Source of the DNA: Eubacteriales bacterium
GTDB taxonomy: Bacteria > Bacillota > Clostridia > Oscillospirales > CAG-382
Assembly (NCBI GenBank): GCA_045652245.1
Contig: JAZRTY010000013.1
Span: forward strand, 1,533 to 65,532
Direction: 5' to 3'
DNA length: 64,000 bases
Position 1 is the first letter of the stretch; each line of letters begins with the position of its first letter. The translations under genes and the position numbers were made by a program. Under the pieces are notes generated by a model, which was not told where the DNA came from, did no database searches, and saw nothing but the letters and a program-made list of their open reading frames with translations. Positions 45,507-58,467 of this stretch are shown in pieces.

Positions 45507-45520
45507 TTGAACCGAAAAAA

Positions 45521-45551
45521 ATGAGTCTGAAGCTTTTTCAGGCTCATTTTT
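45521..45551 (+). terminator. rho-independent terminator after htrA
   Basis: ATGAGTCTGAA / TTCAGGCTCAT (one G-U pair) followed by T5. Confidence 0.75.
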
Positions 45552-45674
45552 GTTGTTTTCTGTGTTTTGTTTGGCAAAACAACACAAAACAACACCAAAA
45601 ACAATAAAAAATCAAATAAAAACAAAAAATATTTGTTGGTTTCTATTGACAAACGGATATAAATATAGTATAAT
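45551..45674 (+). promoter_or_regulatory. BMC promoter P1 with upstream CA-rich phased A-tract element
   Basis: Imperfect palindrome TGTTGTTTTCTGTGTTTTGTTTGG / CAAAACAACACAAAACAACACC (45551-45596), tandem AAAACAACAC repeats, then TTGACA (45646-45651), 17 nt, TATAAT (45669-45674). Confidence 0.6.
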
Positions 45675-45756
45675 ATGAGATGAGTAAAAGTATAGGTATG
45701 CTTTTATGAAATTTGGTATGAATTATTACTATAAATAATGCAAAGGATGTGTTTTT

Positions 45757-48273
45757 ATGGCAAGATATAACAGCGAAAAATGCAAAAAAAGTCCCAGAAT
45801 TGACAGATTAAAGGAGAGGCTGTTTGCAGCAAAACCGGAAATTGAAGCAGACAGAGCAGTGCTTCTTACCGAAAGCTATATGCAGACAGAGAATGAGCCG
45901 ATTGTCACAAGACGTGCAAAGGCGTTCAAAAACATTCTTGAAAATATCCCGATAGTAATTCGCGAGGATGAACTCGTTGTCGGTTCTGCTACTACAAAAT
46001 CGAAGGGCTGTCAGGTTTTCCCGGAATTCTCTTATGCTTGGTTAGAATCCGAATTTGATACACTTGGAACCCGTAGTGCTGACCCGTACTATATTTCTGA
46101 AGAAACAAAAAAGACTCTCAGTACAGTATATAAATATTGGAAGGGAAAAACATCAAGTGAGCTTGCGGAGTCTCTTATGGTGCCGGAAGCAAGGCTTGCT
46201 ATTGAGCATAATGTATTTACTGTCGGAAACTACTTCTATAACGGTGTAGGTCACGTAACAGCAAATTACGGTAAGGTGCTTGAAATCGGTTATCTCGGAA
46301 TAATCGAGGAAGCAAAGGCCGAAAAGGCAAGGATGAATATTGGTGACGCAGATTATGTAACAAAGGGTACTACCCTTGATGCGATTATAATGAGCTGTGA
46401 AGCTGCAATTACATATGCGCAAAGATATAGCGAGCTTGCAAAGAAAATGGCAATGACTGAGATGAATGCCCAGAGAAAAGCAGAGCTTCTGCAGATTGCC
46501 GAGAACTGTGCAAGAGTTCCTGCTCACGGAGCTACAAGCTTCTATGAGGCTTGCCAGAGCTTCTGGTTTGTACAGCTTCTTATTCAGACAGAATCAAGCG
46601 GACATTCTGTATCTCCCGGAAGATTTGATATGTATATGTATCCTTATTATAAGAAGGATATTGACGCAGGCAAGATTACAAGAGACTTTGCTCAGGAGCT
46701 TATAGACTGTATCTGGATAAAGTTCAATGACTTTACAAAGTGCCGTGACGCAGCTTCTGCCGAAGGCTTTGCAGGCTACTCGCTTTTCCAGAACCTTATT
46801 GCAGGTGGTCAGGATAAGAATGGCGAGGATGCAACCAATGACCTTTCCTTTATGTGTATTGATGCTACAATGCACGTGTTACTACCCGGACCGTCCTTCT
46901 CTGTAAGAATCTGGAATAAGACTCCTCACGAATTTTTAATTCGTGCAGCAGAGCTTACAAGAACCGGTGTAGGTCTTCCTGCTTACTATAATGACGAAGT
47001 AATCATTCCGTCGCTTATGTCAAGAGGAGTTGCTCTTGAGGATGCGAGAAACTACAATATCATTGGTTGTGTTGAACCTCAGGTATCAGGTAAAACATGG
47101 GGCTGGCACGATGCTGCGTTCTTTAATATGCTGAAGCCTATGGAAATGGTATTCAACAGCGGCAAGCTCGACGGTGTGCAGGTAGGACCTGTAACTCCCG
47201 ATATTGCTGACATACATAGCTATGATGAATTCTTTGATGCTTACAAGACACAGATAGAATACTGTATCTCGCTTCTTGTAAATGCAGATAACGCGATTGA
47301 TATAGCACACGCTGAAAGATGTCCTCTTCCGTACCTTGCATCTATGATTGAAGACTGTATAGGTACAGGTAAGACTCCCGAGCAGGGTGGAGCTGTTTAT
47401 AACTTCTCAGGTCCTCAGGGATTTGGTATTGCAAACGTTGCCGATGCCCTTTATGCAATTAAAAAGCTGTGCTTTGAAAGTAAGAAGCTTACTCTTGCTG
47501 AGCTTCGTGATGCGATGAATGCAGACTTCGGAAAGGGAACAGACAGTGCCGCAACACTTGCTGAAAAAATAGCACTTGAGCTTTCGAAGACAGGTGTTAA
47601 GGTAACTGAAAACCTTATTTCGGATATCTATAAGGAGCTTAAATCAAAGGACGGCGGAAGCGATACAAGATACGCTGAAATCCGCGAGATGATTCTTGAG
47701 CAGGCAAAGTTCGGTAACGATATTGACGATGTTGATAATATAGCAAGAGAAGCAGCGTACACATATACAAAGCCTCTTCTTAAGTATAAAAATCCAAGAG
47801 GTGGTATGTTCCACGCAGGACTTTATCCGGTATCAGCAAATGTACCGCTCGGAGCACAGACTCCTGCATCTCCTGACGGAAGATACGCATTCACACCTAT
47901 TGCCGATGGTGTTTCGCCTACTGCAGGTAGAGATGTAAACGGACCTACTGCGAGTGCGAACTCTGTTTCAAAGCTTGACCACGGAATAGCATCTAACGGA
48001 ACACTCTTCAATATGAAGTTCCATCCGTCAGCTTTGGCAGGTGATTCAGGGCTTGAAAGCTTTGCAGCTCTTGTACGTACATATTTTGATATGAAGGGTA
48101 GCCATATGCAGTTTAACGTAGTAAGCCGTGAAACTTTGCGTGATGCCCAGAAGAATCCTGATAAATACAGAAGCCTTGTTGTTCGAGTTGCCGGTTACAG
48201 CGCACTCTTTACAACACTTTCAAAATCACTTCAGGACGACATTATAAACAGAACAGAGCAAGCATCGTTTTAA
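45757..48273 (+). CDS. glycyl radical enzyme, PFL2/diol-dehydratase (1,2-eliminase) type
   Basis: 838 aa. Cys loop IIGCVEP (Cys438, Glu440 by my count) and the glycyl radical motif RVAGYSA (Gly813). BMC context. Confidence 0.9.
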   Translation: MARYNSEKCKKSPRIDRLKERLFAAKPEIEADRAVLLTESYMQTENEPIVTRRAKAFKNILENIPIVIREDELVVGSATTKSKGCQVFPEFSYAWLESEFDTLGTRSADPYYISEETKKTLSTVYKYWKGKTSSELAESLMVPEARLAIEHNVFTVGNYFYNGVGHVTANYGKVLEIGYLGIIEEAKAEKARMNIGDADYVTKGTTLDAIIMSCEAAITYAQRYSELAKKMAMTEMNAQRKAELLQIAENCARVPAHGATSFYEACQSFWFVQLLIQTESSGHSVSPGRFDMYMYPYYKKDIDAGKITRDFAQELIDCIWIKFNDFTKCRDAASAEGFAGYSLFQNLIAGGQDKNGEDATNDLSFMCIDATMHVLLPGPSFSVRIWNKTPHEFLIRAAELTRTGVGLPAYYNDEVIIPSLMSRGVALEDARNYNIIGCVEPQVSGKTWGWHDAAFFNMLKPMEMVFNSGKLDGVQVGPVTPDIADIHSYDEFFDAYKTQIEYCISLLVNADNAIDIAHAERCPLPYLASMIEDCIGTGKTPEQGGAVYNFSGPQGFGIANVADALYAIKKLCFESKKLTLAELRDAMNADFGKGTDSAATLAEKIALELSKTGVKVTENLISDIYKELKSKDGGSDTRYAEIREMILEQAKFGNDIDDVDNIAREAAYTYTKPLLKYKNPRGGMFHAGLYPVSANVPLGAQTPASPDGRYAFTPIADGVSPTAGRDVNGPTASANSVSKLDHGIASNGTLFNMKFHPSALAGDSGLESFAALVRTYFDMKGSHMQFNVVSRETLRDAQKNPDKYRSLVVRVAGYSALFTTLSKSLQDDIINRTEQASF

Positions 48274-48305
48274 TCCTTAAAACTTGCAAAAACGGGAGAA
48301 ATTAA

Positions 48306-49097
48306 ATGGTATTAGATAATAATTCTGTTGTCGGAAGAATATTCGACATACAGAAGTTCTCAACCCACGACGGTCCCGGTATTCGTACAATCGTATTTCT
48401 CAAGGGCTGTATTCTGCGTTGCCGTTGGTGCTGTAACCCGGAATCTCAGAGTCACAGAATCGAGAGAATGTTTTTGGGCGGAAAGCTCAAGATTGTCGGA
48501 CGTGATACGACTGTCGGCGAGGTTATGAAGGAAATCGAAAAGGATTTGCCGTATTATCACAGAAGTGGTGGCGGACTTACCTTGTCGGGTGGCGAGGCGC
48601 TGTGTCAGGACGAGTTTGTTCATGCACTGCTGCTGGAAGCAAAGAAACATGGCATAAATACTGCAGTTGAAACTACTGCGTGTCTGCCCTGGTATATGAT
48701 AGAGAAGAACATAGAGTTGCTTGATACTATCTTGATGGATATTAAGCATACAAATTCTGAAAAACACGAGAAATTCTGTGGACTCAGAAACGAGCTTATT
48801 CTTGACAATGCGAAAAAAATCGCTGCTATGGGAAAAAATTTCATTATAAGAGTTCCGGTAATTCCCACATTCAACGATACAGTTGAGGAAATTCGTGATA
48901 TTGCAAGATTTGCAAAATCACTTCCCGGAGTTGAGGAAATTCATCTTCTTCCTTATCACAGACTTGGATATGACAAATATGTTGGTCTTTCGAGAAAATA
49001 CCTTATGGGTGACCTTAAAACTCCGGACAGCGCAAAAATGAAGGAGCTTTCTGCAGCGGCAGAGGGTGAGGGTCTTAAGGTAATAATCGGAGGATAA
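48306..49097 (+). CDS. glycyl-radical enzyme activating protein (radical SAM), short form
   Basis: 263 aa with CILRCRWCCNPES (CxxxCxxC). There are no further Cys clusters between the SAM motif and GGGLTLSGGE. Confidence 0.9.
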   Translation: MVLDNNSVVGRIFDIQKFSTHDGPGIRTIVFLKGCILRCRWCCNPESQSHRIERMFLGGKLKIVGRDTTVGEVMKEIEKDLPYYHRSGGGLTLSGGEALCQDEFVHALLLEAKKHGINTAVETTACLPWYMIEKNIELLDTILMDIKHTNSEKHEKFCGLRNELILDNAKKIAAMGKNFIIRVPVIPTFNDTVEEIRDIARFAKSLPGVEEIHLLPYHRLGYDKYVGLSRKYLMGDLKTPDSAKMKELSAAAEGEGLKVIIGG

Positions 49098-49115
49098 AAT
49101 TTCAGAGGTGAAATA

Positions 49116-49481
49116 ATGGAAATATTTGAACATAAGCAAAGAATTATTCAGGAATCGGTTCCCGGTAAGCAGATTACCCTTGCACATATTATCGCAAATC
49201 CTGATAATACTCTGTATCGCAAGCTTGGTCTTGACCCGACGGTCGATTATTCAAGCAAAAGTGCAATTGGTATTGTCACAATGTGTCCGAGCGAATACGC
49301 AATTATTGCAGCAGACATTTCATTGAAGTCTGCAGGCGCGCAGGTAGGTTTTGTAGACAGATTTTCGGGAACACTCATAGTTGTGGGAAGCGTTTCGGAA
49401 GTAGACTCGGCACTTATAGCAGTGTGTGACTATGCTAAAGAAAAGCTTGGTTTCAATGTTTGTGAAATAACTAAAACCTAA
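49116..49481 (+). CDS. pduU: circularly permuted BMC shell protein (PduU/EutS type)
   Basis: 121 aa, with the N-terminal extension and permuted BMC fold signature (ITLAHIIANPD...VGFVDRFSGTLIVVGSVSEV). Confidence 0.85.
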   Translation: MEIFEHKQRIIQESVPGKQITLAHIIANPDNTLYRKLGLDPTVDYSSKSAIGIVTMCPSEYAIIAADISLKSAGAQVGFVDRFSGTLIVVGSVSEVDSALIAVCDYAKEKLGFNVCEITKT

Positions 49482-49486
49482 ACATT

Positions 49487-49912
49487 ATGAAAAAGATAAT
49501 TTTTATGGGCAAAAGCGGAGCAGGTAAGACGAGTATAATCGAGGCTCTGCGAGGACAGAAAATTACATACCACAAAACGCAATACATATATTATGATGAG
49601 GATTTCATAGATACTCCCGGAGAGTATACCCAGGGACGTGAGCTTGGTGCTGCGCTTGCGGTGTATTCCTACGAGGCAGATGTTGTGGGACTTGTTATAT
49701 GTGCAGAGGATGATTATTGCATTTTCCCTCCTGCATGTGCTCCGGTTGCCAACAGACCTGTTGTCGGAATTGTAACTCAATGCGACGGAAAAACTCAAGA
49801 TCAGCTCGATATTTCAAAACACAGACTTCTGCTTTGTGGCTGCGAAAGAGTGTTTTTTACAAGTGCAAAAACAGGACTCGGAGTACAAGAGTTGCTTGAT
49901 TATTTAAAATAA
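49487..49912 (+). CDS. pduV: EutP/PduV family small GTPase
   Basis: 141 aa with P-loop GKSGAGKTS and DTPGE. Confidence 0.85.
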   Translation: MKKIIFMGKSGAGKTSIIEALRGQKITYHKTQYIYYDEDFIDTPGEYTQGRELGAALAVYSYEADVVGLVICAEDDYCIFPPACAPVANRPVVGIVTQCDGKTQDQLDISKHRLLLCGCERVFFTSAKTGLGVQELLDYLK

Positions 49913-49964
49913 AGTTGTTCTTATTGTATTTTGTTCATTTTTAGTTAATAAATGTGGATTTTAA

Positions 49965-50046
49965 GAACAAAACCACACAAAACAACACAAAAAACAACAA
50001 AAAACCAATAAAAACTATTGACAAAACAAAGACAATGTGGTATTAT
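49965..50046 (+). promoter_or_regulatory. BMC promoter P2 with second copy of the CA-rich element
   Basis: AAAACCACAC-AAAACAACAC-AAAAAACAACA... (49969-50016), then CTATTGACAAA (-35 at 50018-50023), 17 nt, TGgTATTAT (extended -10, 50041-50046). Confidence 0.6.
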
Positions 50047-50117
50047 ATAATTAAGATAGAATATTTTAATTATAATATTCTGCAAAATAAAAAAATAATT
50101 GAAGGAGATAAAAAACT

Positions 50118-50921
50118 ATGTCAGAGTACGAAATCAAAAAACAAATTTGCGACATCGGAAAAAGAATCTATGACAAAGGAATGGTTGCATCTAACGACGG
50201 CAATATTTCTGTAAAGCTCAACGACAACGAATTTCTTTGTACACCTACCGGTGTTTCAAAGGGCTTTATGACACCCGAATACATCTGTAAGGTTGACGCA
50301 GAAGGAAAGGTTATCCAGGCTTATGAAGGCTTCAAGCCCTCTTCTGAAATCAAGATGCACATGAGAGTATATAAGGAAAGACCTGATGTAAAGAGCGTAG
50401 TTCACGCACATCCTCTTTATGCTACAAGCTTTGCAATTGCAGGTATTCCGCTTACAGAGCCGATTATGCCTGAAGCAGTTATCGCTCTTGGTTGTGTTCC
50501 GATTGCTGAATACGGCACACCTTCAACAGAGGAAATTCCGGATGCAGTTTCAAAGTACCTTCAGTACTATGATGCAGTACTTCTTGCAAACCACGGCGCA
50601 CTTGCATTCTCAGATTCTCTTCTTGCAGCATATCACAAGATGGAATCTCTTGAATTCTATGCTCAGCTTCTCTACCAGGCAAAGGTTCTTGGTGGACCCA
50701 AGCAGCTTTCAGATTCACAGGTTCAGAGACTCTACGAAATCAGACGTCAGTTTGGTCTTAAGGGTAAACATCCTGCTGACCTTTGTCCTAATGCTAAGGC
50801 AGGCAAGCCCAGCTGTCACCACTGTCCTAACGGTTCATGCAACGGTTCTTGCTCACACGGCGAGGAAGGCGAAGTTATTGCTGAAATTACAAAAAAAGTG
50901 CTTGCAGCACTCGGTAAGTAA
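50118..50921 (+). CDS. class II aldolase (fuculose/rhamnulose-1-phosphate aldolase-like) with C-terminal extension
   Basis: Zn ligands HAH and NHG, and catalytic SSEIKMH. A ~50-aa tail has a Cys/His-rich linker and the terminal amphipathic helix EVIAEITKKVLAALGK. Confidence 0.85.
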   Translation: MSEYEIKKQICDIGKRIYDKGMVASNDGNISVKLNDNEFLCTPTGVSKGFMTPEYICKVDAEGKVIQAYEGFKPSSEIKMHMRVYKERPDVKSVVHAHPLYATSFAIAGIPLTEPIMPEAVIALGCVPIAEYGTPSTEEIPDAVSKYLQYYDAVLLANHGALAFSDSLLAAYHKMESLEFYAQLLYQAKVLGGPKQLSDSQVQRLYEIRRQFGLKGKHPADLCPNAKAGKPSCHHCPNGSCNGSCSHGEEGEVIAEITKKVLAALGK

Positions 50922-50943
50922 TTAAGGCATATCGGTACATATT

Positions 50944-51456
50944 ATGGGTACAGATATTGAAAAGCTGATTGCGCAGGCGATAAAAAATATTTCCGAAAAC
51001 GAAAATTCTGCAAAAATCACCGAAGCTCAAAAAACAAAGATTGACTATATTTCTCTTGAAAACGCAAAGGTACTTTGCGAATATGTGGAGCAAAAGGCGC
51101 GTGAAATGGGAGTCAATGCAGTTGTAGCGGTCGCTGATAACGGCGGAAACCTTAAAATTTGCGAATGCATGGATGACTCATATATCGCAAGCAGGGATAT
51201 TGCTATAAACAAAGCGTTTACTTCGGTGTCACTCAAGATGTCGACTAAAAAGCTGTCGGTGCTTGCAAAACCAGACGGTCCACTTTACGGAATACAGCAT
51301 ACCAATGGTGGTAAGATTGTAATTTTCGGTGGCGGTGATACTCTGGTGTGCTCCGGAAAGATTCTCGGAGGACTTGGCGTCAGTGGTGGAAGCGAGGAGC
51401 AGGACACAGAGCTTTGCGCAGTTGGAAAAAGATTTTTTGAAGAAAAATTTAATTAA
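50944..51456 (+). CDS. GlcG/DUF336 (PduO C-terminal-like, heme-binding-type) protein with N-terminal helix
   Basis: 170 aa. DUF336 core (VAVADNGGN...GGLGVSGG) preceded by DIEKLIAQAIKNI and a linker. Confidence 0.75.
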   Translation: MGTDIEKLIAQAIKNISENENSAKITEAQKTKIDYISLENAKVLCEYVEQKAREMGVNAVVAVADNGGNLKICECMDDSYIASRDIAINKAFTSVSLKMSTKKLSVLAKPDGPLYGIQHTNGGKIVIFGGGDTLVCSGKILGGLGVSGGSEEQDTELCAVGKRFFEEKFN

Positions 51457-51492
51457 AATATTACGGTATTTTCCGAAGAAAGGAAGATGATT

Positions 51493-52683
51493 ATGACAGA
51501 TCAGGAAAAAATTGAAGCCATAGTCAAGCAGGTAATTTCCGGTATGAAGAATTCAAATGCTTCTTCCGGTGGTGCTGCTTCAGTTCCGAAAACATGTCGC
51601 GTTGCATACCTTACAGATAAGGAAAAATTCGAGATTCGTGAATGTCCCATTCCCGAGCTCGGTGATGATGACGTGCTTGTAAAGGTTGAGGGCTGTGGTG
51701 TGTGTGGTACAGACGCACACGAATATAAGCGTGACCCCTTTGGTCTTATCCCTGTTGTTCTCGGACACGAGGGAACTGGTGAGATTGTAAAGATGGGTAA
51801 AAACGTAAAGAAGGACAGTGCAGGAAAGCCTCTTGCAATCGGTGATAAGATTGTAACCTGTATGATCTTCAACGATAACCCCGATATTACAATGTTCGAC
51901 CTTAATAAGCAGAATGTTGGTGGTGGTGGAGTTTACGGACTTCTTCCGGACGACGATATTCGCCTTAACGGCTGGTTTGCAGATTACATACTTGTAAGAG
52001 GCGGTTCTACAATATTTAATGTAAGTAACCTTGACCTTGATTCAAGAATTCTTATCGAGCCGGCAGCAGTTCTTATTCACGCAGTTGAAAGAGCAAAGAC
52101 AACAGATATTTTAAGATTCAATTCAAGAGTTGCAGTTCAGGGCTGTGGTCCTATCGGACTTCTCTGCATTGCAGTTCTTCGTACAATGGGTATTGAAAAT
52201 ATCGTTGCAGTTGACGGAAATGAACAGAGACTTGAATTTGCAAAGGAAATGGGTGCTACTGCAACAGTAAACTTCAAGAATTACAAAGGTTCTGAAGAAC
52301 TTGCCGGTGGTGTTAAGGATGCATTCGGTGGTTATCTTGCAGACTTTGCGTTCCAGTGTACAGGTTCACCTGTAGCACACGCAAATATCTACAAGTTCAT
52401 CAGAAGTGGCGGCGGACTTTGTGAGCTCGGCTTCTTTATCAACGGAGGAGATGCAACAATCAATCCTCACTTTGATATCTGTTCAAAGGAAATCACAACA
52501 GTAGGCTCATGGGTTTACACACTTCGTGATTACGCAACAACCTTTGATTTCCTCAAGCGTGCAAAGGGAATCGGACTCCCGCTTGAAAAGCTTATTACTC
52601 ATAAATTCAAGCTTGAAGATATTGACGAAGCATTCCAGACAAACCTTCGTCAGGACGGACTTAAGATTGCTGTTGTTTGGTAA
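51493..52683 (+). CDS. zinc-type (MDR) alcohol dehydrogenase with N-terminal encapsulation-peptide-like helix
   Basis: CGVCGTD, GHEGTGEIV, and Rossmann GCGPIG. No structural-Zn Cys lobe. The N-terminus EKIEAIVKQVISGM is followed by a Ser/Gly/Ala linker. The start is 51493 or 51487. Confidence 0.85.
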   Translation: MTDQEKIEAIVKQVISGMKNSNASSGGAASVPKTCRVAYLTDKEKFEIRECPIPELGDDDVLVKVEGCGVCGTDAHEYKRDPFGLIPVVLGHEGTGEIVKMGKNVKKDSAGKPLAIGDKIVTCMIFNDNPDITMFDLNKQNVGGGGVYGLLPDDDIRLNGWFADYILVRGGSTIFNVSNLDLDSRILIEPAAVLIHAVERAKTTDILRFNSRVAVQGCGPIGLLCIAVLRTMGIENIVAVDGNEQRLEFAKEMGATATVNFKNYKGSEELAGGVKDAFGGYLADFAFQCTGSPVAHANIYKFIRSGGGLCELGFFINGGDATINPHFDICSKEITTVGSWVYTLRDYATTFDFLKRAKGIGLPLEKLITHKFKLEDIDEAFQTNLRQDGLKIAVVW

Positions 52684-52697
52684 TCCGGAGGAGCAAA

Positions 52698-53012
52698 ATG
52701 AGAGATGCAGTTGGAATGATTGAAGTATACGGACTTGTTGCAGCATTCGCAGCTTGTGACGCAGGTTGTAAAGCAGCAAACGTAACCGTAGAAACATTCG
52801 ATAAAAATAAGCCTGCAAATCCCGACGGACTTCCGGTACCGCTTCAGGTGCTTGTAAAGTTCAGGGGAACCGTTCAGGATGTCACATCAGCAGTTGATGC
52901 AGCAGAAATTGCTGCAAACGAAATTTCAGGCGTTGTAACAAAGCACATTATCTCAGGTATGGATGAGGGAGCTCAGAAGATGCTCAAGCTCAATGCCTTT
53001 GATAAAAACTAA
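52698..53012 (+). CDS. BMC-H shell protein, divergent, with enlarged pore loop
   Basis: 104 aa with the BMC fold (AVGMIEVYGLVAA...). The canonical GxEKIGSG loop is replaced by ETFDKNKPANPDGLPVPLQ. Start at 52698 after GGAGGAG. Confidence 0.8.
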   Translation: MRDAVGMIEVYGLVAAFAACDAGCKAANVTVETFDKNKPANPDGLPVPLQVLVKFRGTVQDVTSAVDAAEIAANEISGVVTKHIISGMDEGAQKMLKLNAFDKN

Positions 53013-53051
53013 AATTTATAAACTATATTTTATTTATGGAGGATTACAAAA

Positions 53052-53327
53052 ATGTCACAGGAAGCACTTGGAATGATTGAAACAAGAGGTCTTACAGCAG
53101 CAATTGAAGCAGCAGATGCAATGGTAAAGGCAGCAGAGGTTACTCTTATAGGAACAGAAAAAATCGGTTCAGGTCTCGTATCTGTAATGGTAAGAGGCGA
53201 TGTTGGAGCTGTTAAGGCAGCAGTAGAAGCAGGCGCAGTTACAGCAACAAGACTTGGTGAGGTTATCGCAACACACGTAATTCCGAGACCTCATAACGAT
53301 GTAGAAAAGATTCTTCCCAAGCTTTAA
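53052..53327 (+). CDS. pduA: BMC-H shell protein, PduA/PduJ type
   Basis: 91 aa: [10 protein letters not shown]...[23 protein letters not shown]...HVIPRPH. Confidence 0.92.
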
Positions 53328-53382
53328 TTTTAGGAAATACTTAATTCGTAAGGCACACGCTTTGCGTTAGATTGGAGCAAAT

Positions 53383-53667
53383 ATGAAATCACTCGGCTTT
53401 ATCGAGGTGTCCGGCGTTGTAGCTGCGACATGTGCTCTTGATGTTATGTGCAAGAGTGCTGACATTGAATTTGTTACCTGGGAGAGAAAGCTTGGAGGCA
53501 GGATGGTCACTATAATAGTGACAGGAAGCGTTTCTGATGTAACAGAGGCAATTGAATGTGCAAAGAAGACAGCACCATTCGATATTACAGCCTCAAATGT
53601 TATAGCAAACCCTCACGAGGAAACAATAAGAATGGTCGAGCTTTCTGCGTCGAGACTAAAAAAATAA
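53383..53667 (+). CDS. BMC-H shell protein, divergent
   Basis: 94 aa with the BMC fold (SLGFIEVSGVVAA...); the pore loop is ERKLGGRM. Confidence 0.8.
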   Translation: MKSLGFIEVSGVVAATCALDVMCKSADIEFVTWERKLGGRMVTIIVTGSVSDVTEAIECAKKTAPFDITASNVIANPHEETIRMVELSASRLKK

Positions 53668-53710
53668 GCAAAATGCAAATCCTTTTAAAAACTAAAGGAG
53701 AATGAAAGTT

Positions 53711-54100
53711 ATGGCAACTACTAAAAAAGTGTCAAAAACCACAGCACCCGAAACCGAAGTAAAGGTTGAAGAAGCAGTGGAAAATAATATTAAAACAAAT
53801 ATTGTAAAGGAGAAAGTAAAAATGGTACAGCAAGCACTTGGTATGATTGAAACACGTGGTCTTGTTGCTGCAATCGAAGCAGCAGATGCAATGCTCAAGG
53901 CAGCAAACGTAGAACTCGTAGGAACTGAAAAGATCGGTTCAGGACTCGTATCTGTAATGGTAAGAGGAGACGTTGGAGCTGTTAAGGCGGCTGTTGAAAC
54001 AGGCGCAACAGCAGCAGGTGCTCTTGGAGAACTTATCGCAACACACGTAATTCCAAGACCTCATGGCGACGTTGAAAAGATTCTTCCTGTTTTAAAGTAA
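53711..54100 (+). CDS. pduJ: BMC-H shell protein, PduA/PduJ type (possible 37-aa N-terminal extension; alternative start 53822)
   Basis: The core from 53822 is a close paralog of the 53052 gene. Both 53711 (AAGGAG 10 nt upstream) and 53822 (AAGGAGA 8 nt upstream) have good RBSs. Confidence 0.85.
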
Positions 54101-54136
54101 TATCTTAATTACAGAGTAAGAAAAAGCTGCATTTAT

Positions 54137-54166
54137 CGCTTCGGGGGGATTTTTCTCCCCGAAGCG
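54137..54166 (+). promoter_or_regulatory. strong intra-operon stem-loop between the shell block and pduN
   Basis: CGCTTCGGGG...CCCCGAAGCG, a 10-bp GC-rich stem extendable to about 13 bp. A weaker GCTGA/TCAGC hairpin plus T6 lies at 54190-54209. Confidence 0.5.
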
Positions 54167-54262
54167 AGGTTGCGACTTTTGTGAAGGATGCTGAGTCTTC
54201 AGCTTTTTTCACAAGTGCCGTAATTATTTTTAGGGTTGTCCCCGAATGAAAGGAATGATTAT

Positions 54263-54517
54263 ATGATAATCGGTAAGGTTATTGGAAGTGTAGTTTCAAC
54301 AAGAAAGAATGAAAAACTTGTGGGTCAGAAGCTTCTCATAGTAGAGCCACTTGACGGAATGACGCAAAATGGAAATTTTATTGCAATAGATAATGTTGGC
54401 GCAGGCTTTGGGGAAAAGGTGCTCGTAGCTACAGGATCTGCTGCAAGAATTGGTTGTGGTCTTGAAAATGCTCCGGTTGATGCTGCGATTGTAGGAATTA
54501 TCGACGAACAGCAATAA
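54263..54517 (+). CDS. pduN: BMC-P pentameric vertex protein (EutN/PduN/CcmL)
   Basis: 84 aa: MIIGKVIGSVVSTRK...LLIVEPLD...AIDNVGAG...VLVATGSAAR. Confidence 0.9.
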   Translation: MIIGKVIGSVVSTRKNEKLVGQKLLIVEPLDGMTQNGNFIAIDNVGAGFGEKVLVATGSAARIGCGLENAPVDAAIVGIIDEQQ

Positions 54518-54580
54518 TCATCATCTGTGTAATTTTACAAACTTTTTGTGCCATAACAGATGGCGACGAATGGAGATTAT

Positions 54581-55909
54581 ATGGAACTTAATAAACTATC
54601 TGAAATAATGAAAAAAGCCGGGGTTGTAGGTGCCGGTGGTGCCGGCTTCCCCTCATATGCAAAACTTAATATGGCTGCAGATACAATTATACTTAATTGT
54701 GCGGAATGTGAACCACTACTCAAGCTTCACAGACAGGTTATGAAGATATATGCAAGTGAGATAATGGAAACCCTCGAGGAAATCGCTGATACCCTTGAGG
54801 CTTCAAATGTAATCATCGCAATAAAACCTCACTATGAGGAAGCTGTTAGCGCAATTCGTGAAAATCTTAACAAATTCAAGAAAATCAAAATCGGATTTTT
54901 ACCTGAAATTTATCCTGCAGGTGACGAAATAGTTACTATATACGAAACAACAGGCCGAGTTGTAAATCCAGGTTCACTCCCGATTACAGTCGGTTGTATC
55001 GTTTATAATGTTGAAACTATTTACAATGTTTACAGAGCCTGGAAAGAGGATGCTCCTGTTACACATAAGTACATAACAATCGCAGGTGAGGTTAAAGCTC
55101 CCTGTACACTGAAAGCGCCTCTTGGTATTACCTTCGGAGAGCTTATTGCTATGGCAGGTGGTGAGACTTGTAAGGATACGGTAATTATTTCAGGCGGTCC
55201 TATGACGGGTGTTATCGGAAGTAAAAGTGATGTTGTTACAAAAACATCAAATGCTATTCTTGTAATGCCAAGAGAAGCTTTAATCGTACAGAAGAGACTT
55301 ACTCCTCTTTCTATAAACGTAAAACGTGCTATGGCTGCTTGTTGTCAGTGCAGAATGTGTACCGACCTTTGCTCAAGAAATCTTCTCGGACACCCGATTG
55401 AGCCTCATAAGATTATGCAGGCTGCAGCAAGTGGCGTTGCAAGTAACAGTAAAGCCTTTTTGGGTACATTCTCCTGCTCGTCCTGTGGACTTTGTGAGCT
55501 TTATGCCTGTGGACAGAACTTAAGTCCCAGAAGCATTATTGCTGATATTAAGGATGGACTTCGTGCAGGTGGTGTAACACCTCCAAAAGGACTTGTTGCA
55601 GGTAATGTGCCTGAAACAAGAGAATACAGAAAGGTTCCGATGTCAAGACTTATTTCAAGACTCGGACTTAAAAAATATGACCTTGATGCACCTGTTGTTG
55701 ATGTCGATATTACCTCAAAGAGTGTTAGAATAATGCTCTCACAGCATATCGGTGCTCCGGCTACAGCCCTTGTTAAGGTTGGAGATACGGTAAAATGTGG
55801 CGATATGCTCGGAAATGTCGCAGATGATAAGCTTGGTACAGCAGTTCATTCTCCGATGAATGGTAAAGTAGTCGAAGTTTGTGACAAATTTGTTGTAGTC
55901 GAAGCTTGA
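54581..55909 (+). CDS. pduS: PduS/RnfC-like flavo-iron-sulfur oxidoreductase
   Basis: GVVGAGGAGFPSYAKL, SLBB region, and two Fe-S motifs, CCQCRMCTDLC and CSSCGLCELYAC. Confidence 0.85.
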   Translation: MELNKLSEIMKKAGVVGAGGAGFPSYAKLNMAADTIILNCAECEPLLKLHRQVMKIYASEIMETLEEIADTLEASNVIIAIKPHYEEAVSAIRENLNKFKKIKIGFLPEIYPAGDEIVTIYETTGRVVNPGSLPITVGCIVYNVETIYNVYRAWKEDAPVTHKYITIAGEVKAPCTLKAPLGITFGELIAMAGGETCKDTVIISGGPMTGVIGSKSDVVTKTSNAILVMPREALIVQKRLTPLSINVKRAMAACCQCRMCTDLCSRNLLGHPIEPHKIMQAAASGVASNSKAFLGTFSCSSCGLCELYACGQNLSPRSIIADIKDGLRAGGVTPPKGLVAGNVPETREYRKVPMSRLISRLGLKKYDLDAPVVDVDITSKSVRIMLSQHIGAPATALVKVGDTVKCGDMLGNVADDKLGTAVHSPMNGKVVEVCDKFVVVEA

Positions 55910-55927
55910 GGAAAGGATGGGTGAAAA

Positions 55928-56479
55928 ATGTTAAATAAAGCACTTGGTATGGTCGAATATCAGACTGTTTCAGCAGGTATTACTGCTGCTGACCTTATGG
56001 TAAAGACAGCAAGCATCGAAATTCTGCAGTCATCTGTTGTTTGTCCCGGTAAATATATTACAATTTTTAGTGGTGAGCTTTCTGCAGTGTCAGCTGCGCT
56101 TGAAGCTGCAAAGACCCAGCTTGGTGATAAGCTTTCCGATTCATTTGTGCTTGGAAATCCCCATGAGGATATTTTCCCTGCAATTTATGGTGGTGCGCAT
56201 ATTGAAAATGCAAGAGCCCTGGGCGTTCTTGAAACCTTCTCTGCACCTGCAATAATTGTTGCTGCAGATGCAGCAGCAAAAACAAGTGATGTTTCACTTA
56301 TCGAGCTTCGTATAGCACGCGGTATGTGTGGTAAATCATATATGCTGCTTACAGGTGAGGTTGCAGCTGTTTCTGCTGCTATTGAAAACGCAAAAGAAAA
56401 AGTCGGCAAAGACGGACTTCTTCTTGATACTTCAGTTATTCCGAGTCCCGATAAGAGTCTCTGGACTTCTATTTTATAA
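55928..56479 (+). CDS. pduT: BMC-T tandem-domain shell protein, PduT type
   Basis: 183 aa, two BMC repeats. Cys39 in VVCPGKY corresponds to the PduT pore [4Fe-4S] ligand position. Confidence 0.85.
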   Translation: MLNKALGMVEYQTVSAGITAADLMVKTASIEILQSSVVCPGKYITIFSGELSAVSAALEAAKTQLGDKLSDSFVLGNPHEDIFPAIYGGAHIENARALGVLETFSAPAIIVAADAAAKTSDVSLIELRIARGMCGKSYMLLTGEVAAVSAAIENAKEKVGKDGLLLDTSVIPSPDKSLWTSIL

Positions 56480-56481
56480 TT

Positions 56482-57240
56482 ATGTTACCGATTGAAAGAA
56501 GAAATGAGATTCTTCAAAAGCTTATGGTTGACGGCAAGGTAATTGTATCACAGCTTGCTGAAAAGTATGAGGTTACCGAAGAAACCATACGTCGTGACCT
56601 TGAAAAGCTTGAAGATGACGGATATGCTAAAAAAACTTACGGTGGTGCCGTTCGTAACGATAATATGACAAGTGAGCTTCCGTATACTGTAAGAAAGCAG
56701 ACTAATGTCGGGGGAAAGAAATATATCGCCGAGATTATTGCATCTCTTATTGAGGACGGAGACAGCTTGCTTCTCGATTCGAGTACTACAGCCCTTTTTA
56801 CTGTTAAAAGTATTTTCTCGAAGCATAATCTTACTATTATTACAAATTCGGTTGAAATTCTCCTTGACCTGCCGGTTGGCAATGACTGGAATATAATTTC
56901 AACAGGTGGACAGTACCGCAGTGAAGCTATGGCATTCCACGGCAATTCTGCTGCTGATGTTGTAAGAAAATATCATGTTGATTATGCTATTTTGTCCTGT
57001 AAGGGACTTGATATCGAAAAAGGTATTACCGATTCAAGAGAGATTTTTTCTCAATTTAAAAATTGCTTCTTTGAATCAGCTAAAAAGGTAATTCTTGCAG
57101 TAGACAATACAAAGTTTGATAAGATTTCCTTTGTATGTCTTGGTGATATCAATAAAGTAGATGTTGTAGTTACTGATATTGAACCATCTGAAAAATGGAA
57201 AAACTACTTTGAAGAAGAAGGAATAGAACTGTTCTATTGA
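56482..57240 (+). CDS. DeoR family transcriptional regulator
   Basis: 252 aa: N-terminal HTH (RRNEILQKL...VSQLAEKYEVTEETIRRDL) plus a DeoR_C sugar-phosphate-binding-type domain. Confidence 0.88.
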   Translation: MLPIERRNEILQKLMVDGKVIVSQLAEKYEVTEETIRRDLEKLEDDGYAKKTYGGAVRNDNMTSELPYTVRKQTNVGGKKYIAEIIASLIEDGDSLLLDSSTTALFTVKSIFSKHNLTIITNSVEILLDLPVGNDWNIISTGGQYRSEAMAFHGNSAADVVRKYHVDYAILSCKGLDIEKGITDSREIFSQFKNCFFESAKKVILAVDNTKFDKISFVCLGDINKVDVVVTDIEPSEKWKNYFEEEGIELFY

Positions 57241-57264
57241 TACTTCTTTTGTGAAAGGCGTCAG

Positions 57265-58410
57265 ATGAATACTTTTGGAATTAAAACCAAAGTTTGTTTT
57301 GGTGATAATGCTCTTTCTGCACTTTCCGAAATAAAGGCTAAAAATGCTGTAATTCTTACAGATGCCTTTATGAGAGATTCGGGAAATGCAGATATGCTTG
57401 CTTTGCTTTGTGAAAATTGTGACAATGTTTCGATTTTTGCAGAAATAATACCTGATCCTCCGGTCGAGCTTATCGTCAGGGGGCTTGAGTTTTTGCTCTC
57501 AAAGAACGCCGATGTGGTTATTGCTCTTGGTGGTGGTTCTTCAATTGATGCTGCAAAGGCTACAATACTTATGTATGCAAAAAAGACAGGTACACGTATT
57601 CCTCTTGTCGCAGTTCCAACTACAAGTGGAACAGGTAGTGAGGTTACAAAATTTGCAGTGATTACCGATAGGGAAGCAGGAGTCAAGTACCCACTTGCGT
57701 CGGATATGATGCTTCCGGATGTTGCTATTTTATCAAGTGACCTAGTAAAAAGTGTACCTGCGGGAATTACTGCAGATACAGGCTTTGACGTTATTACTCA
57801 TGCCATTGAAGCGTATATATCAACTCAGGCAAGTGATTTTACCGATGCTTTTGCCCAGATGTCGCTTGAACTTTGTTGTCAATATCTCCGTCTTGCTTGC
57901 GAGGATGGAAATGATACAGTTGCAAGAGAGAAGATGCACAACGCCTCGTGTCTTGCCGGAATGGCTTTTAATGACGCAGGTCTCGGTGTAAATCACGGTA
58001 TTGCCCACGCACTTGGTGCAACCTTTCATATTCCACACGGAAGAGCAAATGCTATGCTTCTTTACCATACAATGAAATATAATGCTTCTCTTGACAGCGC
58101 AGAAGCGTATGGAGACATAACTCCTACCTGTGCAAAACTGTCAAAAATTGCAAAGCTTGTAGGTTTACCGTGTGTTTCTGTAAAATCCGGAGCTGCGAAT
58201 CTTATAAATGAAGTTCGTCGTTTGACGATTGCTCTTGGTATTCCGCAAACTCTTGCTGATGTCGGAATTGCAAAAGAGGATTATATGCAATACAGAGAGC
58301 ATATTATAAAAAGCGCTGTTAATGATGCTTGTTCTTTAACAAATCCACGTGAGGTTAACGAAGCAGCTGTTGCTAAAATACTTTCCGGAATCGAGATTTT
58401 CACAAAATAA
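57265..58410 (+). CDS. iron-containing alcohol dehydrogenase (PduQ/FucO/EutG-like)
   Basis: 381 aa: GGGSSIDAAK and the His cluster HAIEAY...HGIAHALG...HG. No terminal encapsulation-type helix. Confidence 0.85.
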   Translation: MNTFGIKTKVCFGDNALSALSEIKAKNAVILTDAFMRDSGNADMLALLCENCDNVSIFAEIIPDPPVELIVRGLEFLLSKNADVVIALGGGSSIDAAKATILMYAKKTGTRIPLVAVPTTSGTGSEVTKFAVITDREAGVKYPLASDMMLPDVAILSSDLVKSVPAGITADTGFDVITHAIEAYISTQASDFTDAFAQMSLELCCQYLRLACEDGNDTVAREKMHNASCLAGMAFNDAGLGVNHGIAHALGATFHIPHGRANAMLLYHTMKYNASLDSAEAYGDITPTCAKLSKIAKLVGLPCVSVKSGAANLINEVRRLTIALGIPQTLADVGIAKEDYMQYREHIIKSAVNDACSLTNPREVNEAAVAKILSGIEIFTK

Positions 58411-58424
58411 AATATAAATTCAAA

Positions 58425-58467
58425 CACTGCAGGGTTTTCAACTTTGCAGTGCTTTTTGTTTTTTTAT
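58425..58467 (+). terminator. terminator closing the BMC operon
   Basis: CACTGCA / TGCAGTG stem followed by CTTTTTGTTTTTTT. Confidence 0.65.

What the first reader, a model, noticed from the sequence alone, without database searches (positions are those of the whole stretch)
45521..58467. Glycyl-radical-enzyme microcompartment locus with no acylating aldehyde dehydrogenase or phosphotransacylase: possibly an all-reductive metabolosome
The region between two terminators (45521-45551 and 58425-58467) encodes a full BMC kit. The shell genes are a permuted PduU-type protein, four BMC-H, one BMC-P and one PduT-type BMC-T. The other genes are a GRE, its activase, PduV, a class II aldolase, DUF336, an MDR Zn-ADH, PduS, DeoR and an Fe-ADH. 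A GRE together with a class II aldolase is the hallmark of the fucose/rhamnose (GRM5-type) class. Every characterised catabolic metabolosome (PDU, EUT, GRM, PVM, RMM) has an acylating aldehyde dehydrogenase as its core. In most of them (PDU, EUT, GRM, PVM) a PduL/Pta phosphotransacylase and an ADH are also present, and together these recycle NAD+/NADH and CoA inside the shell. Here all ORFs over 60 aa in this 13 kb are accounted for, and none is ALDH-like (~450-500 aa) or PduL-like. The encoded chemistry is therefore: sugar-1-P to DHAP plus lactaldehyde (aldolase); lactaldehyde to 1,2-propanediol (ADH); propanediol to propionaldehyde (GRE); propionaldehyde to 1-propanol (ADH). That route consumes two NADH and has no internal NAD+-reducing step. 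Either the core enzymes are encoded in a satellite locus, or this compartment needs an external supply of reducing equivalents, with the PduS/PduT pair as an obvious candidate. There is also no sugar isomerase, kinase or permease for fucose/rhamnose in the window; only a ribokinase and a MATE pump follow.
Basis: partly seen in the sequence, partly recalled or inferred. Interest (0 to 1): 0.75.

Follow-up and report, generated by a model that had tools for sequence, protein, structure and literature searches.

The report
Fucose/rhamnose microcompartment locus without oxidative branch
This is a real, conserved variant of the known fucose/rhamnose glycyl-radical microcompartment (GRM5) locus that has lost the three-gene branch making propionate and ATP and kept only alcohol dehydrogenases, so as encoded it can only reduce the sugar's C3 fragment to 1-propanol, which tests the idea that such organelles must recycle NAD(H) internally.

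Summary
Window 45757-58410 (+) is one terminator-bounded locus with GRE, activase, seven shell genes, PduV, class II aldolase, DUF336, Zn-ADH, PduS/PduT, DeoR and Fe-ADH. No acylating ALDH, PduL or acetate kinase lies anywhere in the 64 kb, not even as remnants.

It is a GRM5 derivative.

Of 57 informative relatives, 49 carry ALDH+PduL inside the locus, at one of three alternative positions. Eight lack them, like the window. All nine ALDH-less loci have the Fe-ADH directly after DeoR/PduT, where the relative L007 has DeoR-AckA-ALDH-PduL-FeADH.

The ALDH-less state recurs in several lineages. Every gene is under purifying selection (dN/dS 0.05-0.19 against L001). In 79 ALDH-centred loci no satellite copy was seen.

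Best reading (about 0.55): a reductive-only, propanol-forming compartment fed by NADH crossing the shell. Purified ΔPduP Pdu compartments behave this way in vitro. PduS/PduT as NADH generator is disfavoured.

Main rival (about 0.3): ALDH/PduL supplied from elsewhere in the genome, which these tools could not check.

It is a new variant of a known kind, of moderate interest.

The parts
45517..45551 (+). Intrinsic terminator of the upstream htrA-like gene; left boundary of the locus
   Evidence: 16-pair stem followed by a T-tract
45583..45604 (+). CA-rich 22-nt element, copy 1 (CACAAAACAACACCAAAAACAA), 42 nt upstream of the -35 box
   Evidence: Two exact matches in the window against 0.00 expected; sequence
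45646..45674 (+). Promoter P1, perfect sigma-70 consensus (TTGACA-17-TATAAT)
   Evidence: 12/12 match
45757..48273 (+). Glycyl radical 1,2-propanediol dehydratase, carrying the internal insertion of about 60 aa that is predicted to be an encapsulation peptide
   Evidence: PFL-like plus Gly_radical. End-to-end match of 1193 bits to R. inulinivorans diol dehydratase 5I2A. The GCVEPQ, GVGHVT, YPVSANVPLG and RVAGYS motifs are identical
48306..49097 (+). GRE-activating radical SAM enzyme, short form without the ferredoxin-like insert (the GRM5 trait)
   Evidence: Radical_SAM plus Fer4_12 only. TIGR02494 296 bits in two stretches that skip the insert region
49116..49481 (+). Circularly permuted BMC-H shell protein (EutS/PduU type)
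   Evidence: BMC domain; EutS subfamily 106 bits
49487..49912 (+). PduV/EutP GTPase
   Evidence: PF10662, E=1e-43
49976..49997 (+). CA-rich 22-nt element, copy 2, 21 nt upstream of the -35 box
   Evidence: the CA-rich tract and TTGACA are conserved in L001, L162, L163 and L165
50018..50046 (+). Internal promoter P2 (TTGACA-17-TATTAT with TG) in the PduV-aldolase gap
   Evidence: 11/12 match; the -35 box is invariant in five relatives
50118..50921 (+). Class II (fuculose/rhamnulose-1-P type) aldolase with a C-terminal Cys/His-rich linker and an encapsulation-peptide helix (GEVIAEITKKVLAALGK)
   Evidence: Aldolase_II, E=3e-51, residues 9-185 of 267. The tail is conserved across loci. It falls below all NCBIfam equivalog cut-offs
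50944..51456 (+). DUF336/HbpS-like protein with an N-terminal encapsulation peptide (DIEKLIAQAIKNI)
   Evidence: PF03928 covers residues 36-159; the N-terminal helix is conserved
51487..52683 (+). Zn-dependent MDR alcohol dehydrogenase with an N-terminal encapsulation peptide. It is the canonical GRM5 lactaldehyde/propionaldehyde reductase and the only EP-tagged NAD(H) enzyme here
   Evidence: ADH_N plus ADH_zinc_N start at residue 59. A helix QEKIEAIVKQVISGMK plus a variable linker is conserved. PDB homologues align only from about residue 45
52677..53012 (+). BMC-H shell protein
   Evidence: PF00936
53052..53327 (+). BMC-H shell protein (PduA-like)
   Evidence: PF00936, E=6e-30
53383..53667 (+). 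BMC-H shell protein
   Evidence: PF00936
53702..54100 (+). BMC-H shell protein. The Lys-rich 40-aa N-terminal extension is not conserved in relatives, so the true start may be M41 at 53822
   Evidence: PF00936 covers residues 45-120. The gene is called at 85-126 aa in relatives
54236..54517 (+). BMC-P pentamer protein
   Evidence: EutN_CcmL, E=1e-30
54560..55909 (+). PduS-type flavo-FeS oxidoreductase (Nuo51 FMN/NADH domain, two 4Cys motifs, SLBB, RnfC_N)
   Evidence: the motifs GAGGAGFP, CCQCRMCTDLC and CSSCGLCELYAC are read
55928..56479 (+). PduT-type BMC-T with the pore cysteine (VVC39PGK)
   Evidence: Two BMC domains; TIGR02526 124 bits; sequence
56482..57240 (+). DeoR-family regulator
   Evidence: HTH_DeoR plus DeoRC
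57241..57264 (+). 24-bp DeoR/Fe-ADH junction. At this position the relative L007 carries AckA-ALDH-PduL (about 3.4 kb)
   Evidence: ALDH-bearing loci are listed
57265..58410 (+). Fe-dependent alcohol dehydrogenase with no encapsulation peptide, closest to the ADH domain of AdhE. It is orthologous to the Fe-ADH that follows PduL in L007/L049/L055/L063
   Evidence: Fe-ADH plus ADH_Fe_C; 3ZDR E=1e-87; tree and N-termini
58425..58461 (+). Intrinsic terminator; right boundary of the locus
   Evidence: 12-pair stem plus CTTTTTGTTT

Best explanation
The locus encodes a GRM5-type (L-fuculose/L-rhamnulose-1-phosphate) glycyl-radical microcompartment that has lost the oxidative, ATP-yielding cassette (acetate/propionate kinase, CoA-acylating propionaldehyde dehydrogenase, PduL). 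It keeps only the reductive route.

Proposed pathway inside the shell:
1. The EP-tagged aldolase splits the deoxy-ketose-1-phosphate into DHAP, which leaves the compartment, and L-lactaldehyde.
2. The EP-tagged Zn-ADH reduces lactaldehyde to 1,2-propanediol.
3. The GRE dehydrates propanediol to propionaldehyde.
4. Propionaldehyde is reduced to 1-propanol by the Zn-ADH inside the shell, by the untagged Fe-ADH, or by both.

The compartment would then be a net sink of two NADH per sugar with no substrate-level phosphorylation. NADH and NAD+ would exchange across the shell instead of being recycled internally. The payoff for the cell would be redox disposal, for example letting the DHAP-derived pyruvate go to acetate plus ATP without making H2.

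Shown here: gene content, encapsulation peptides, absence of the cassette in cis, conservation and selection.

Inferred: substrate, enzyme roles, product, and NADH import.
For: Identity as GRM5:
- All GRM5 hallmarks are present.
- Gene order is collinear with relatives.

Loss of the cassette:
- There is no ALDH, PduL or AckA signal in 64 kb.
- L007 has DeoR-AckA-ALDH-PduL-FeADH, while the window has DeoR, 24 bp, then the orthologous FeADH.

Recurrence and stability:
- Eight further ALDH-less loci exist (L001, L026, L053, L071, L077, L162, L163, L165) among 57 informative relatives.
- They have different flanks and different junctions.
- dN/dS against L001 is 0.05-0.19 for all 16 genes, with dS at least 0.65.
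- 9/9 ALDH-less loci carry the Fe-ADH, against 5/37 ALDH+ loci (Fisher 1.8e-6).

No satellites seen:
- In 80 ALDH-centred metagenome loci, 75 have the ALDH beside GRM5 genes, 5 are cut by contig ends and none is isolated.
- The three closest ALDHs looked up (four places) also sit in main loci.

Encapsulation:
- The EP helices on Zn-ADH, DUF336 and aldolase are conserved and resemble those on the relatives' ALDH and PduL.

Feasibility:
- Purified ΔPduP Pdu compartments still make 1-propanol from externally added NADH, more slowly (bioRxiv 10.1101/2025.08.20.671389).
- A pduQ mutant is viable (PMC3471927).
Against: - The rest of the genome could not be searched. GRM5 genomes sometimes also carry EUT2B or other BMC loci (Sutter 2021 supplement), and their ALDH/PTAC could serve in trans.
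- The ALDH-PduL cassette is positionally mobile (three in-locus positions), so relocation is conceivable.
- The Fe-ADH has no recognisable encapsulation peptide, so its place inside the shell is unproven.
- No enzyme activity, substrate or product has been measured for this lineage.
- Cofactor passage through shells is regarded as inefficient (PMC11626177 abstract), so a compartment with no internal recycling would be kinetically handicapped.
Confidence: 0.55

Rival explanations
1. Split locus. The compartment is an ordinary GRM5 whose ALDH and PduL (plus kinase) are encoded elsewhere in the genome, either as a satellite or borrowed from a second BMC locus such as EUT or PDU. Propionate and propanol would both be made, with normal internal NAD/CoA recycling.
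For: - The cassette sits at three different in-locus positions in relatives, so it moves.
- Satellite AldDh is documented for ACI loci, and many BMC types have satellites (PMC8217296).
- EUT2B co-occurs with GRM5/5like in about 5-15% of cases.
- Only 64 kb of the genome is visible.
Against: - No satellite arrangement was seen among 75 informative ALDH-centred metagenome loci or in the four further look-up places.
- The ALDH-less state correlates perfectly with an in-locus Fe-ADH. This is expected if the reductive enzyme compensates for a true loss.
- There are no ALDH or PduL remnants and no extra CA-rich element anywhere in the window.
Confidence: 0.3
2. One reading: reductive-only compartment whose luminal NADH is regenerated by PduS, using electrons passed through the PduT [4Fe-4S] pore cluster from cytosolic reduced ferredoxin or flavodoxin.
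For: - PduS has an NADH/FMN (Nuo51/RnfC-like) domain and two 4Cys motifs.
- PduT keeps the pore cysteine.
- The pair is adjacent and conserved.
Against: - PduS/PduT occur in all GRM5 loci (57/57) whether or not ALDH is present, so they are not an adaptation to ALDH loss (PMC6325248).
- The measured potentials of the Pdu homologues (PduT +99 mV; PduS FMN -150 to -262 mV) favour electron flow from NADH outward or to the activase, not reduction of NAD+ at -320 mV.
Confidence: 0.07
3. The substrate or chemistry differs from fucose/rhamnose. For example, another deoxy-sugar phosphate is cleaved by the aldolase, or the Zn-ADH dismutates propionaldehyde to propanol plus propionate with bound cofactor.
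For: - The aldolase is below every NCBIfam equivalog cut-off. Its best hit is the OtnC decarboxylase at 142 bits, with FucA at 130.
- There are no fucose or rhamnose genes in the window.
- The Zn-ADH has only distant characterised relatives.
Against: - The GRE is an end-to-end orthologue of the characterised R. inulinivorans propanediol dehydratase, with identical active-site motifs.
- The aldolase is 78-92% identical to those of ALDH-bearing relatives, including the canonical-order locus L036.
- ALDH-less relatives have a rhamnosidase (L162) or an FGGY kinase (L163) nearby.
Confidence: 0.05
4. A decaying, non-functional remnant of a GRM5 locus.
For: It lacks two enzymes regarded as the core of metabolosomes.
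Against: - All 16 genes are intact, with dN/dS 0.05-0.19 against L001 at near-saturated dS.
- Both consensus promoters and both terminators are intact.
- The same architecture is kept in nine loci.
Confidence: 0.03

Closest known systems
GRM5 fucose/rhamnose glycyl-radical microcompartment (Clostridium phytofermentans Cphy_1174-1187; Roseburia inulinivorans)
   Same: The two share:
- The GRE propanediol dehydratase with its internal insertion.
- The short activase.
[quoted passage not shown]
- The PduS/PduT pair.
- The class II aldolase with a C-terminal EP.
- The Zn-MDR ADH with an N-terminal EP.
- DUF336 and the DeoR regulator.

Gene order is the same as in relatives (PMC3557285, PMC6325248).
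   Different: There is no PduP-type ALDH and no PduL (and no AckA). An Fe-ADH sits at the 3' end instead. No HAD hydrolase lies upstream.
Engineered ΔPduP Pdu microcompartments of Salmonella (Palmero et al. 2025 preprint)
   Same: An aldehyde-producing dehydratase plus an alcohol dehydrogenase inside a shell without the acylating ALDH. They make 1-propanol only, using NADH supplied from outside.
   Different: The Salmonella system is a laboratory deletion in a B12-dependent compartment. Here the state is natural, conserved, GRE-based, and includes an upstream aldolase and a second NADH-consuming step.
BMC types with an incomplete or dispersed core (MIC, ACI with satellite AldDh, EUT2K module, BUF) in the Axen 2014 and Sutter 2021 catalogues
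   Same: Precedent that a main locus need not hold all four core enzymes.
   Different: MIC types are defined by having the AldDh but lacking other core enzymes. ACI has its AldDh in a satellite. Here the AldDh and PTAC are the missing parts, while the signature enzyme and the ADH remain.
Cytosolic anaerobic fucose/rhamnose fermentation of E. coli and Salmonella (FucA/RhaD plus FucO, with 1,2-propanediol excreted)
   Same: The C3 aldehyde branch is used purely as an electron sink, with no ATP from it (PMC3557285 introduction).
   Different: That pathway is not encapsulated, stops at propanediol and consumes one NADH. Here a GRE and a further reduction would take it to 1-propanol (two NADH) inside a shell.

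Membership tests
GRM5 (fucose/rhamnose GRE microcompartment) | GRE (PF02901+PF01228) and a cognate activase (PF04055) encoded with BMC shell genes | tested here: met
GRM5 (fucose/rhamnose GRE microcompartment) | GRE of the 1,2-propanediol dehydratase clade with the internal insertion of about 60 aa; activase lacking the ferredoxin-like insert | tested here: met
   The GRE gives a 1193-bit end-to-end match to 5I2A, with the insertion region aligned. The activase is 263 aa with only Radical_SAM and Fer4_12. The criteria come from PMC6325248
GRM5 (fucose/rhamnose GRE microcompartment) | Class II aldolase (PF00596) with a C-terminal encapsulation peptide | tested here: met
GRM5 (fucose/rhamnose GRE microcompartment) | Zn-MDR ADH (PF00107+PF08240), the 'lactaldehyde reductase', with an N-terminal encapsulation peptide | tested here: met
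   A GRM5 Zn-ADH EP model built from 197 sequences exists in the Sutter 2021 supplement
GRM5 (fucose/rhamnose GRE microcompartment) | PduS/PduT pair with the pore cysteine; DeoR regulator; DUF336 | tested here: met
GRM5 (fucose/rhamnose GRE microcompartment) | CoA-acylating aldehyde dehydrogenase (PF00171) with an N-terminal EP in the locus | tested here: not met
   tblastn with three relatives' ALDHs against the whole window gave a best E of 0.54. No such ORF appears
GRM5 (fucose/rhamnose GRE microcompartment) | PduL phosphotransacylase (PF06130) in the locus | tested here: not met
   The best tblastn E is 0.10, on an unrelated stretch
GRM5 (fucose/rhamnose GRE microcompartment) | Induction by, and growth on, fucose/rhamnose, with propanol and propionate as products | not testable with these tools
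   The organism is an uncultured Clostridia MAG lineage; no data exist
Canonical metabolosome core (Axen 2014) | Aldehyde-generating signature enzyme, AldDH, PTAC and AlcDH that recycle NAD and CoA internally | tested here: not met
   The signature enzymes (aldolase, GRE) and two ADHs are present. AldDH and PTAC are absent in cis. Supply in trans was not testable
MIC (metabolosome with incomplete core) | Encodes the core AldDH but lacks AlcDH and/or PTAC | tested here: not met
   The opposite pattern holds: ADHs are present and AldDH is absent (definition in PMC4207490)

The most novel reading that the evidence does not exclude
A naturally evolved, lineage-stable bacterial microcompartment that encloses a purely reductive pathway: deoxyhexose-phosphate to DHAP plus 1-propanol. 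It would have no acylating aldehyde dehydrogenase, no CoA chemistry and no internal NAD(H) recycling. It would be an electron-sink organelle that depends on bulk NADH import and NAD+ export across the protein shell. It arose repeatedly by loss of an AckA-ALDH-PduL cassette, and an Fe-ADH cassette is its alternative.
Probability: 0.45. Interest if true: 0.7.

Novelty: new variant of a known kind. Interest (0 to 1): 0.55.

Why it matters
The accepted design rule for catabolic microcompartments is that an aldehyde dehydrogenase, a phosphotransacylase and an alcohol dehydrogenase keep private NAD and CoA pools cycling inside a poorly permeable shell.

A natural compartment maintained by selection that keeps the aldehyde-generating enzymes but only the NADH-consuming half would show that shells can sustain stoichiometric cofactor traffic in vivo. 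It would also give a clean system in which to measure that traffic.

It predicts a class of gut and rumen Clostridia that turn fucose or rhamnose into 1-propanol rather than propionate. That matters for short-chain fatty acid and alcohol budgets in the gut.

The modular ends of the locus (oxidative cassette, reductive cassette, or both) are a ready-made natural experiment for BMC engineering.

If a trans-encoded ALDH/PduL exists, the finding reduces to a split GRM5 locus of modest interest.

Tried and rejected
1. Identifying the source genome. The window's Zn-ADH (both the 398-aa and the 396-aa form, P0001) is 'not on record' in the look-up of encoding contigs.
2. Linking ALDH homologues to the ALDH-less genomes through NCBI accession ranges. 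The listing of cluster members returned no accessions, so this was abandoned.
3. Looking for ALDH/PduL/AckA pseudogene remnants in the window. None were found.
4. Aligning deletion junctions among ALDH-less loci. The spacers of 15-347 bp are unalignable, so shared and independent deletions cannot be told apart.
5. Phylogeny to count losses. The inner clade is a near-polytomy (internal branches 0.001-0.008). The printed supports there are very low but unreliable after re-rooting. A Biopython bootstrap timed out. Only 'at least three losses, or loss plus regain' can be stated.
6. Rfam scan of the locus at E<=0.1. Nothing was found.
7. Formaldehyde-dismutase-like nicotinoprotein idea for the Zn-ADH. 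The nearest structures are ordinary polyol dehydrogenases, so there is no support.
8. FucO identity for the Fe-ADH. It is below the cut-off and closer to the AdhE ADH domain.
9. Literature. Zarzycki 2015 (PMC4644659) and LaMattina 2016 (PMC4957038) are not held. The GRM5 and GRM5like text in the Sutter 2021 supplement is truncated. Searches found no report of an ALDH-less GRM5.
10. The CA-rich element as a regulon probe. The exact 13-mer occurs in only two other loci, upstream of the GRE. It is too divergent to use.

Full report
**1. What is in the sequence**

The region is a single, well-delimited locus on the + strand.
- A strong hairpin terminator (45517-45551) ends the upstream HtrA-like protease gene.
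- A perfect sigma-70 consensus promoter follows (TTGACA-17-TATAAT, 45646-45674).
- Sixteen genes run from 45757 to 58410.
- A second strong terminator closes the locus (58425-58451 plus a T-tract).

[quoted passage not shown] A MATE pump and a ribokinase-like PfkB kinase follow.

The rest of the window is housekeeping of a spore-forming member of the Clostridia: the his operon, FeoB, rubrerythrin, SpoIID, SipL, dipicolinate synthase, TyrRS, YidC, then pyrH-frr-uppS-cdsA. None of the larger ORFs scanned is a fucose or rhamnose isomerase, kinase or transporter.

**2. The absence is real**

I took ALDH (three arrangement types), PduL (two) and acetate kinase sequences from related loci and ran tblastn against all six frames of the 64 kb. 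Nothing scored better than E=0.1. There is no gene and no decayed remnant in the window.

**3. It is a GRM5 locus**

- The GRE aligns end to end (1193 bits, residues 1-836) with the crystallised Roseburia inulinivorans diol dehydratase 5I2A. The alignment includes the GRM3/4/5-specific internal insertion.
- The Cys-loop (GCVEPQ), the GVGHVT and YPVSANVPLG segments and the glycyl loop (RVAGYS) are identical.
- The activase is the short, insert-less form that Ferlez et al. give as a GRM5 peculiarity (PMC6325248).
Petit 2013 call it 'propanol dehydrogenase'. Zarzycki and Ferlez call it 'lactaldehyde reductase'.

Encapsulation peptides are readable directly.
- The Zn-ADH has a conserved N-terminal amphipathic helix (QEKIEAIVKQVISGMK) and a variable Ala/Ser/Pro linker before the catalytic domain.
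- DUF336 has DIEKLIAQAIKNI at its N-terminus.
- The aldolase has a C-terminal GEVIAEITKKVLAALGK.
- These resemble the peptides on the ALDH and PduL of relatives.
- The Fe-ADH has none.

**4. Comparison with relatives**

A scan of one genome per species with the Zn-ADH found more than 564 species with a relative, and the best 80 loci were fetched. One more locus came from a protein look-up and three more from the nearest homologues.

Gene-order tables show that 49 of 57 informative loci carry ALDH and PduL inside the locus, in one of three arrangements:
- (a) DUF336-ALDH-ZnADH ... BMC-H-PduL-BMC-P. This is the C. phytofermentans order, seen for example in Mobilisporobacter senegalensis (L036).
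- (b) PduT-ALDH-BMC-H-PduL-DeoR.
- (c) DeoR-[AckA]-ALDH-PduL-[FeADH].

Precomputed Pfam for three such loci confirms PF00871, PF00171 and PF06130.

Eight loci (L001, L026, L053, L071, L077, L162, L163, L165) lack the cassette, as the window does. Each has at least 3 kb of sequence beyond the last core gene (at least 5 kb in all eight). All nine ALDH-less loci have the Fe-ADH immediately after DeoR or PduT. Only 5 of 37 ALDH-bearing loci with enough flank have it (Fisher 1.8e-6, not corrected for phylogeny).

The Fe-ADHs form one orthologous family whose tree mirrors the locus tree. The window is therefore the L007 arrangement (DeoR-AckA-ALDH-PduL-FeADH) minus three genes, with 24 bp left between DeoR and Fe-ADH.

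The closest ALDH-bearing relatives (L002, L004, L166, L168) have the reverse: the cassette but no Fe-ADH. The 3' end of the locus is thus modular, holding the oxidative cassette, the reductive cassette, or both.

**5. Is the ALDH-less state stable and functional?**

- The ALDH-less loci fall in one larger clade but are interleaved with ALDH-bearing ones.
- Their junction spacers differ (15 to 347 bp) and their genomic flanks differ.
- Resolution is poor. The data need either at least three losses or an old loss with regains.
- The state has survived speciation. Between the window and L001, all 16 genes have dN/dS of 0.05-0.19 with synonymous sites near saturation. These values match the flanking housekeeping genes pyrH and frr.
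- Both promoters and both terminators are intact. The locus is not decaying.

**6. Could ALDH and PduL be elsewhere in the genome?**

As an indirect test I sampled the family from the ALDH side. Of 80 metagenome loci found with the L004 ALDH, 75 have the ALDH next to GRM5 genes, 5 are cut by a contig end inside or just before AckA, and none is an isolated satellite. The three closest database ALDHs that I looked up (four places) are also in main loci.

So a relocated GRM5-lineage ALDH has no precedent in this sample. An ALDH borrowed from a different BMC type, or a cytosolic AdhE, cannot be excluded. The Sutter catalogue notes that EUT2B co-occurs with GRM5 in a minority of genomes.

**7. Mechanism**

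As encoded, the route is:
1. Aldolase: ketose-1-P to DHAP plus lactaldehyde.
2. Zn-ADH: lactaldehyde to 1,2-propanediol.
3. GRE: propanediol to propionaldehyde.
4. Zn-ADH and/or Fe-ADH: propionaldehyde to 1-propanol.

This consumes two NADH and has no oxidative step.

By my own stoichiometry, canonical GRM5 is balanced inside the shell only if all propionaldehyde is oxidised. C. phytofermentans and R. inulinivorans make propanol as well. Net NADH entry is therefore already implied for GRM5, and the window is the limiting case.

Cofactor entry is feasible.
- Salmonella pduQ mutants grow.
- Purified ΔPduP compartments still make 1-propanol from added NADH, though more slowly.

A whole-cell balance is plausible, by inference. 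Fucose would give acetate, CO2 and propanol, with glycolytic NADH and ferredoxin-derived NADH both consumed. That would suit H2-rich gut habitats. The MAGs come from ruminant, deer and human faecal or gut samples.

- The pair is universal in GRM5.
- The measured potentials of the Pdu homologues point the other way.

**8. Verdict**

The thing is a new variant of a known kind: a GRM5 locus family in which the AckA-ALDH-PduL cassette is replaced functionally by an Fe-ADH. I found no description of it in the BMC catalogues or GRE reviews that I could read. The relevant supplement text is truncated and Zarzycki 2015 was not available.

I put about 0.55 on a truly reductive-only compartment, 0.3 on a trans-supplied oxidative branch, and the remainder on minor alternatives.

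Noticed in passing
window 45583-45604 and 49976-49997: There are two exact copies of a 22-nt CA-rich element (CACAAAACAACACMAAAAACAA; 0.00 expected by chance). Each lies inside a longer A/C-rich tract just upstream of a consensus TTGACA -35 box (45646 and 50018). The locus therefore has two similarly built promoters (GRE-AE-PduU-PduV, and aldolase to Fe-ADH). The tract and the -35 box are conserved in L001, L162, L163 and L165. It may be the DeoR operator or an UP element.
   Followed up: partly
window 50118-50921, residues about 215-250 of the aldolase; all related loci: Between the aldolase domain and its C-terminal encapsulation helix lies a conserved Cys/His-rich linker (KHPADLCPNAKAGKPSCH-x-C...C...C). 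Across 76 relatives, the last 85 residues hold 3-5 cysteines. It looks like a metal or Fe-S binding site on a cargo-targeting tail. It is a feature of the related loci in general, not of the ALDH-less variant.
   Followed up: partly
L001-L081 and L082-L161: The ALDH-PduL pair occupies three alternative positions in otherwise collinear GRM5 loci. The 3' end carries AckA-ALDH-PduL, Fe-ADH, or both. This is cassette-like modularity in a BMC locus.
   Followed up: yes
L083, L094, L096, L122, L136: Five metagenome contigs start inside or immediately before the AckA/ALDH cassette. This could reflect assembly breaks caused by presence/absence polymorphism of the cassette among co-occurring strains.
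   Followed up: no
L001 5263-6768; L165 6093-6851: Unrelated genes are inserted between the GRE and its activase in two ALDH-less relatives: a 501-aa ORF with a faint DUF3863 hit in L001, and a GDSL lipase in L165.
   Followed up: no
L066, L068, L076 (and L036): Some loci with aldolase, Zn-ADH, ALDH, PduL and shell genes show no GRE or activase within the 4-9 kb of flank that was fetched. They may be GRE-less (PVM-like) relatives, or the GRE may be placed further away, as in L078, where it follows DeoR.
   Followed up: no
window 53702-53821: The fourth BMC-H has a Lys-rich 40-aa N-terminal extension before a second Met ([10 protein letters not shown]). Relatives are called at 85-126 aa, so the extension is variable and the true start is uncertain.
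   Followed up: partly
window 45552-45756 compared with L001, L162, L163 and L165 upstream of the GRE: Relatives carry a Cof-type HAD hydrolase (PF08282) directly upstream of the GRE. This is the 'hydrolase' listed as a GRM5 ancillary gene by Axen 2014. The window has none, and its locus starts right after the htrA terminator.
   Followed up: no
window 59963-60901; L001 18429-19373: A ribokinase-like PfkB kinase (TIGR02152 270 bits, below the cut-off of 299.65) lies between the locus and pyrH in both the window and L001. It is absent from this position in L162, L163 and L165. It is probably not part of the BMC system.
   Followed up: partly
L043: A second GRE-activase pair lies in inverted orientation just downstream of PduL.
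   Followed up: no
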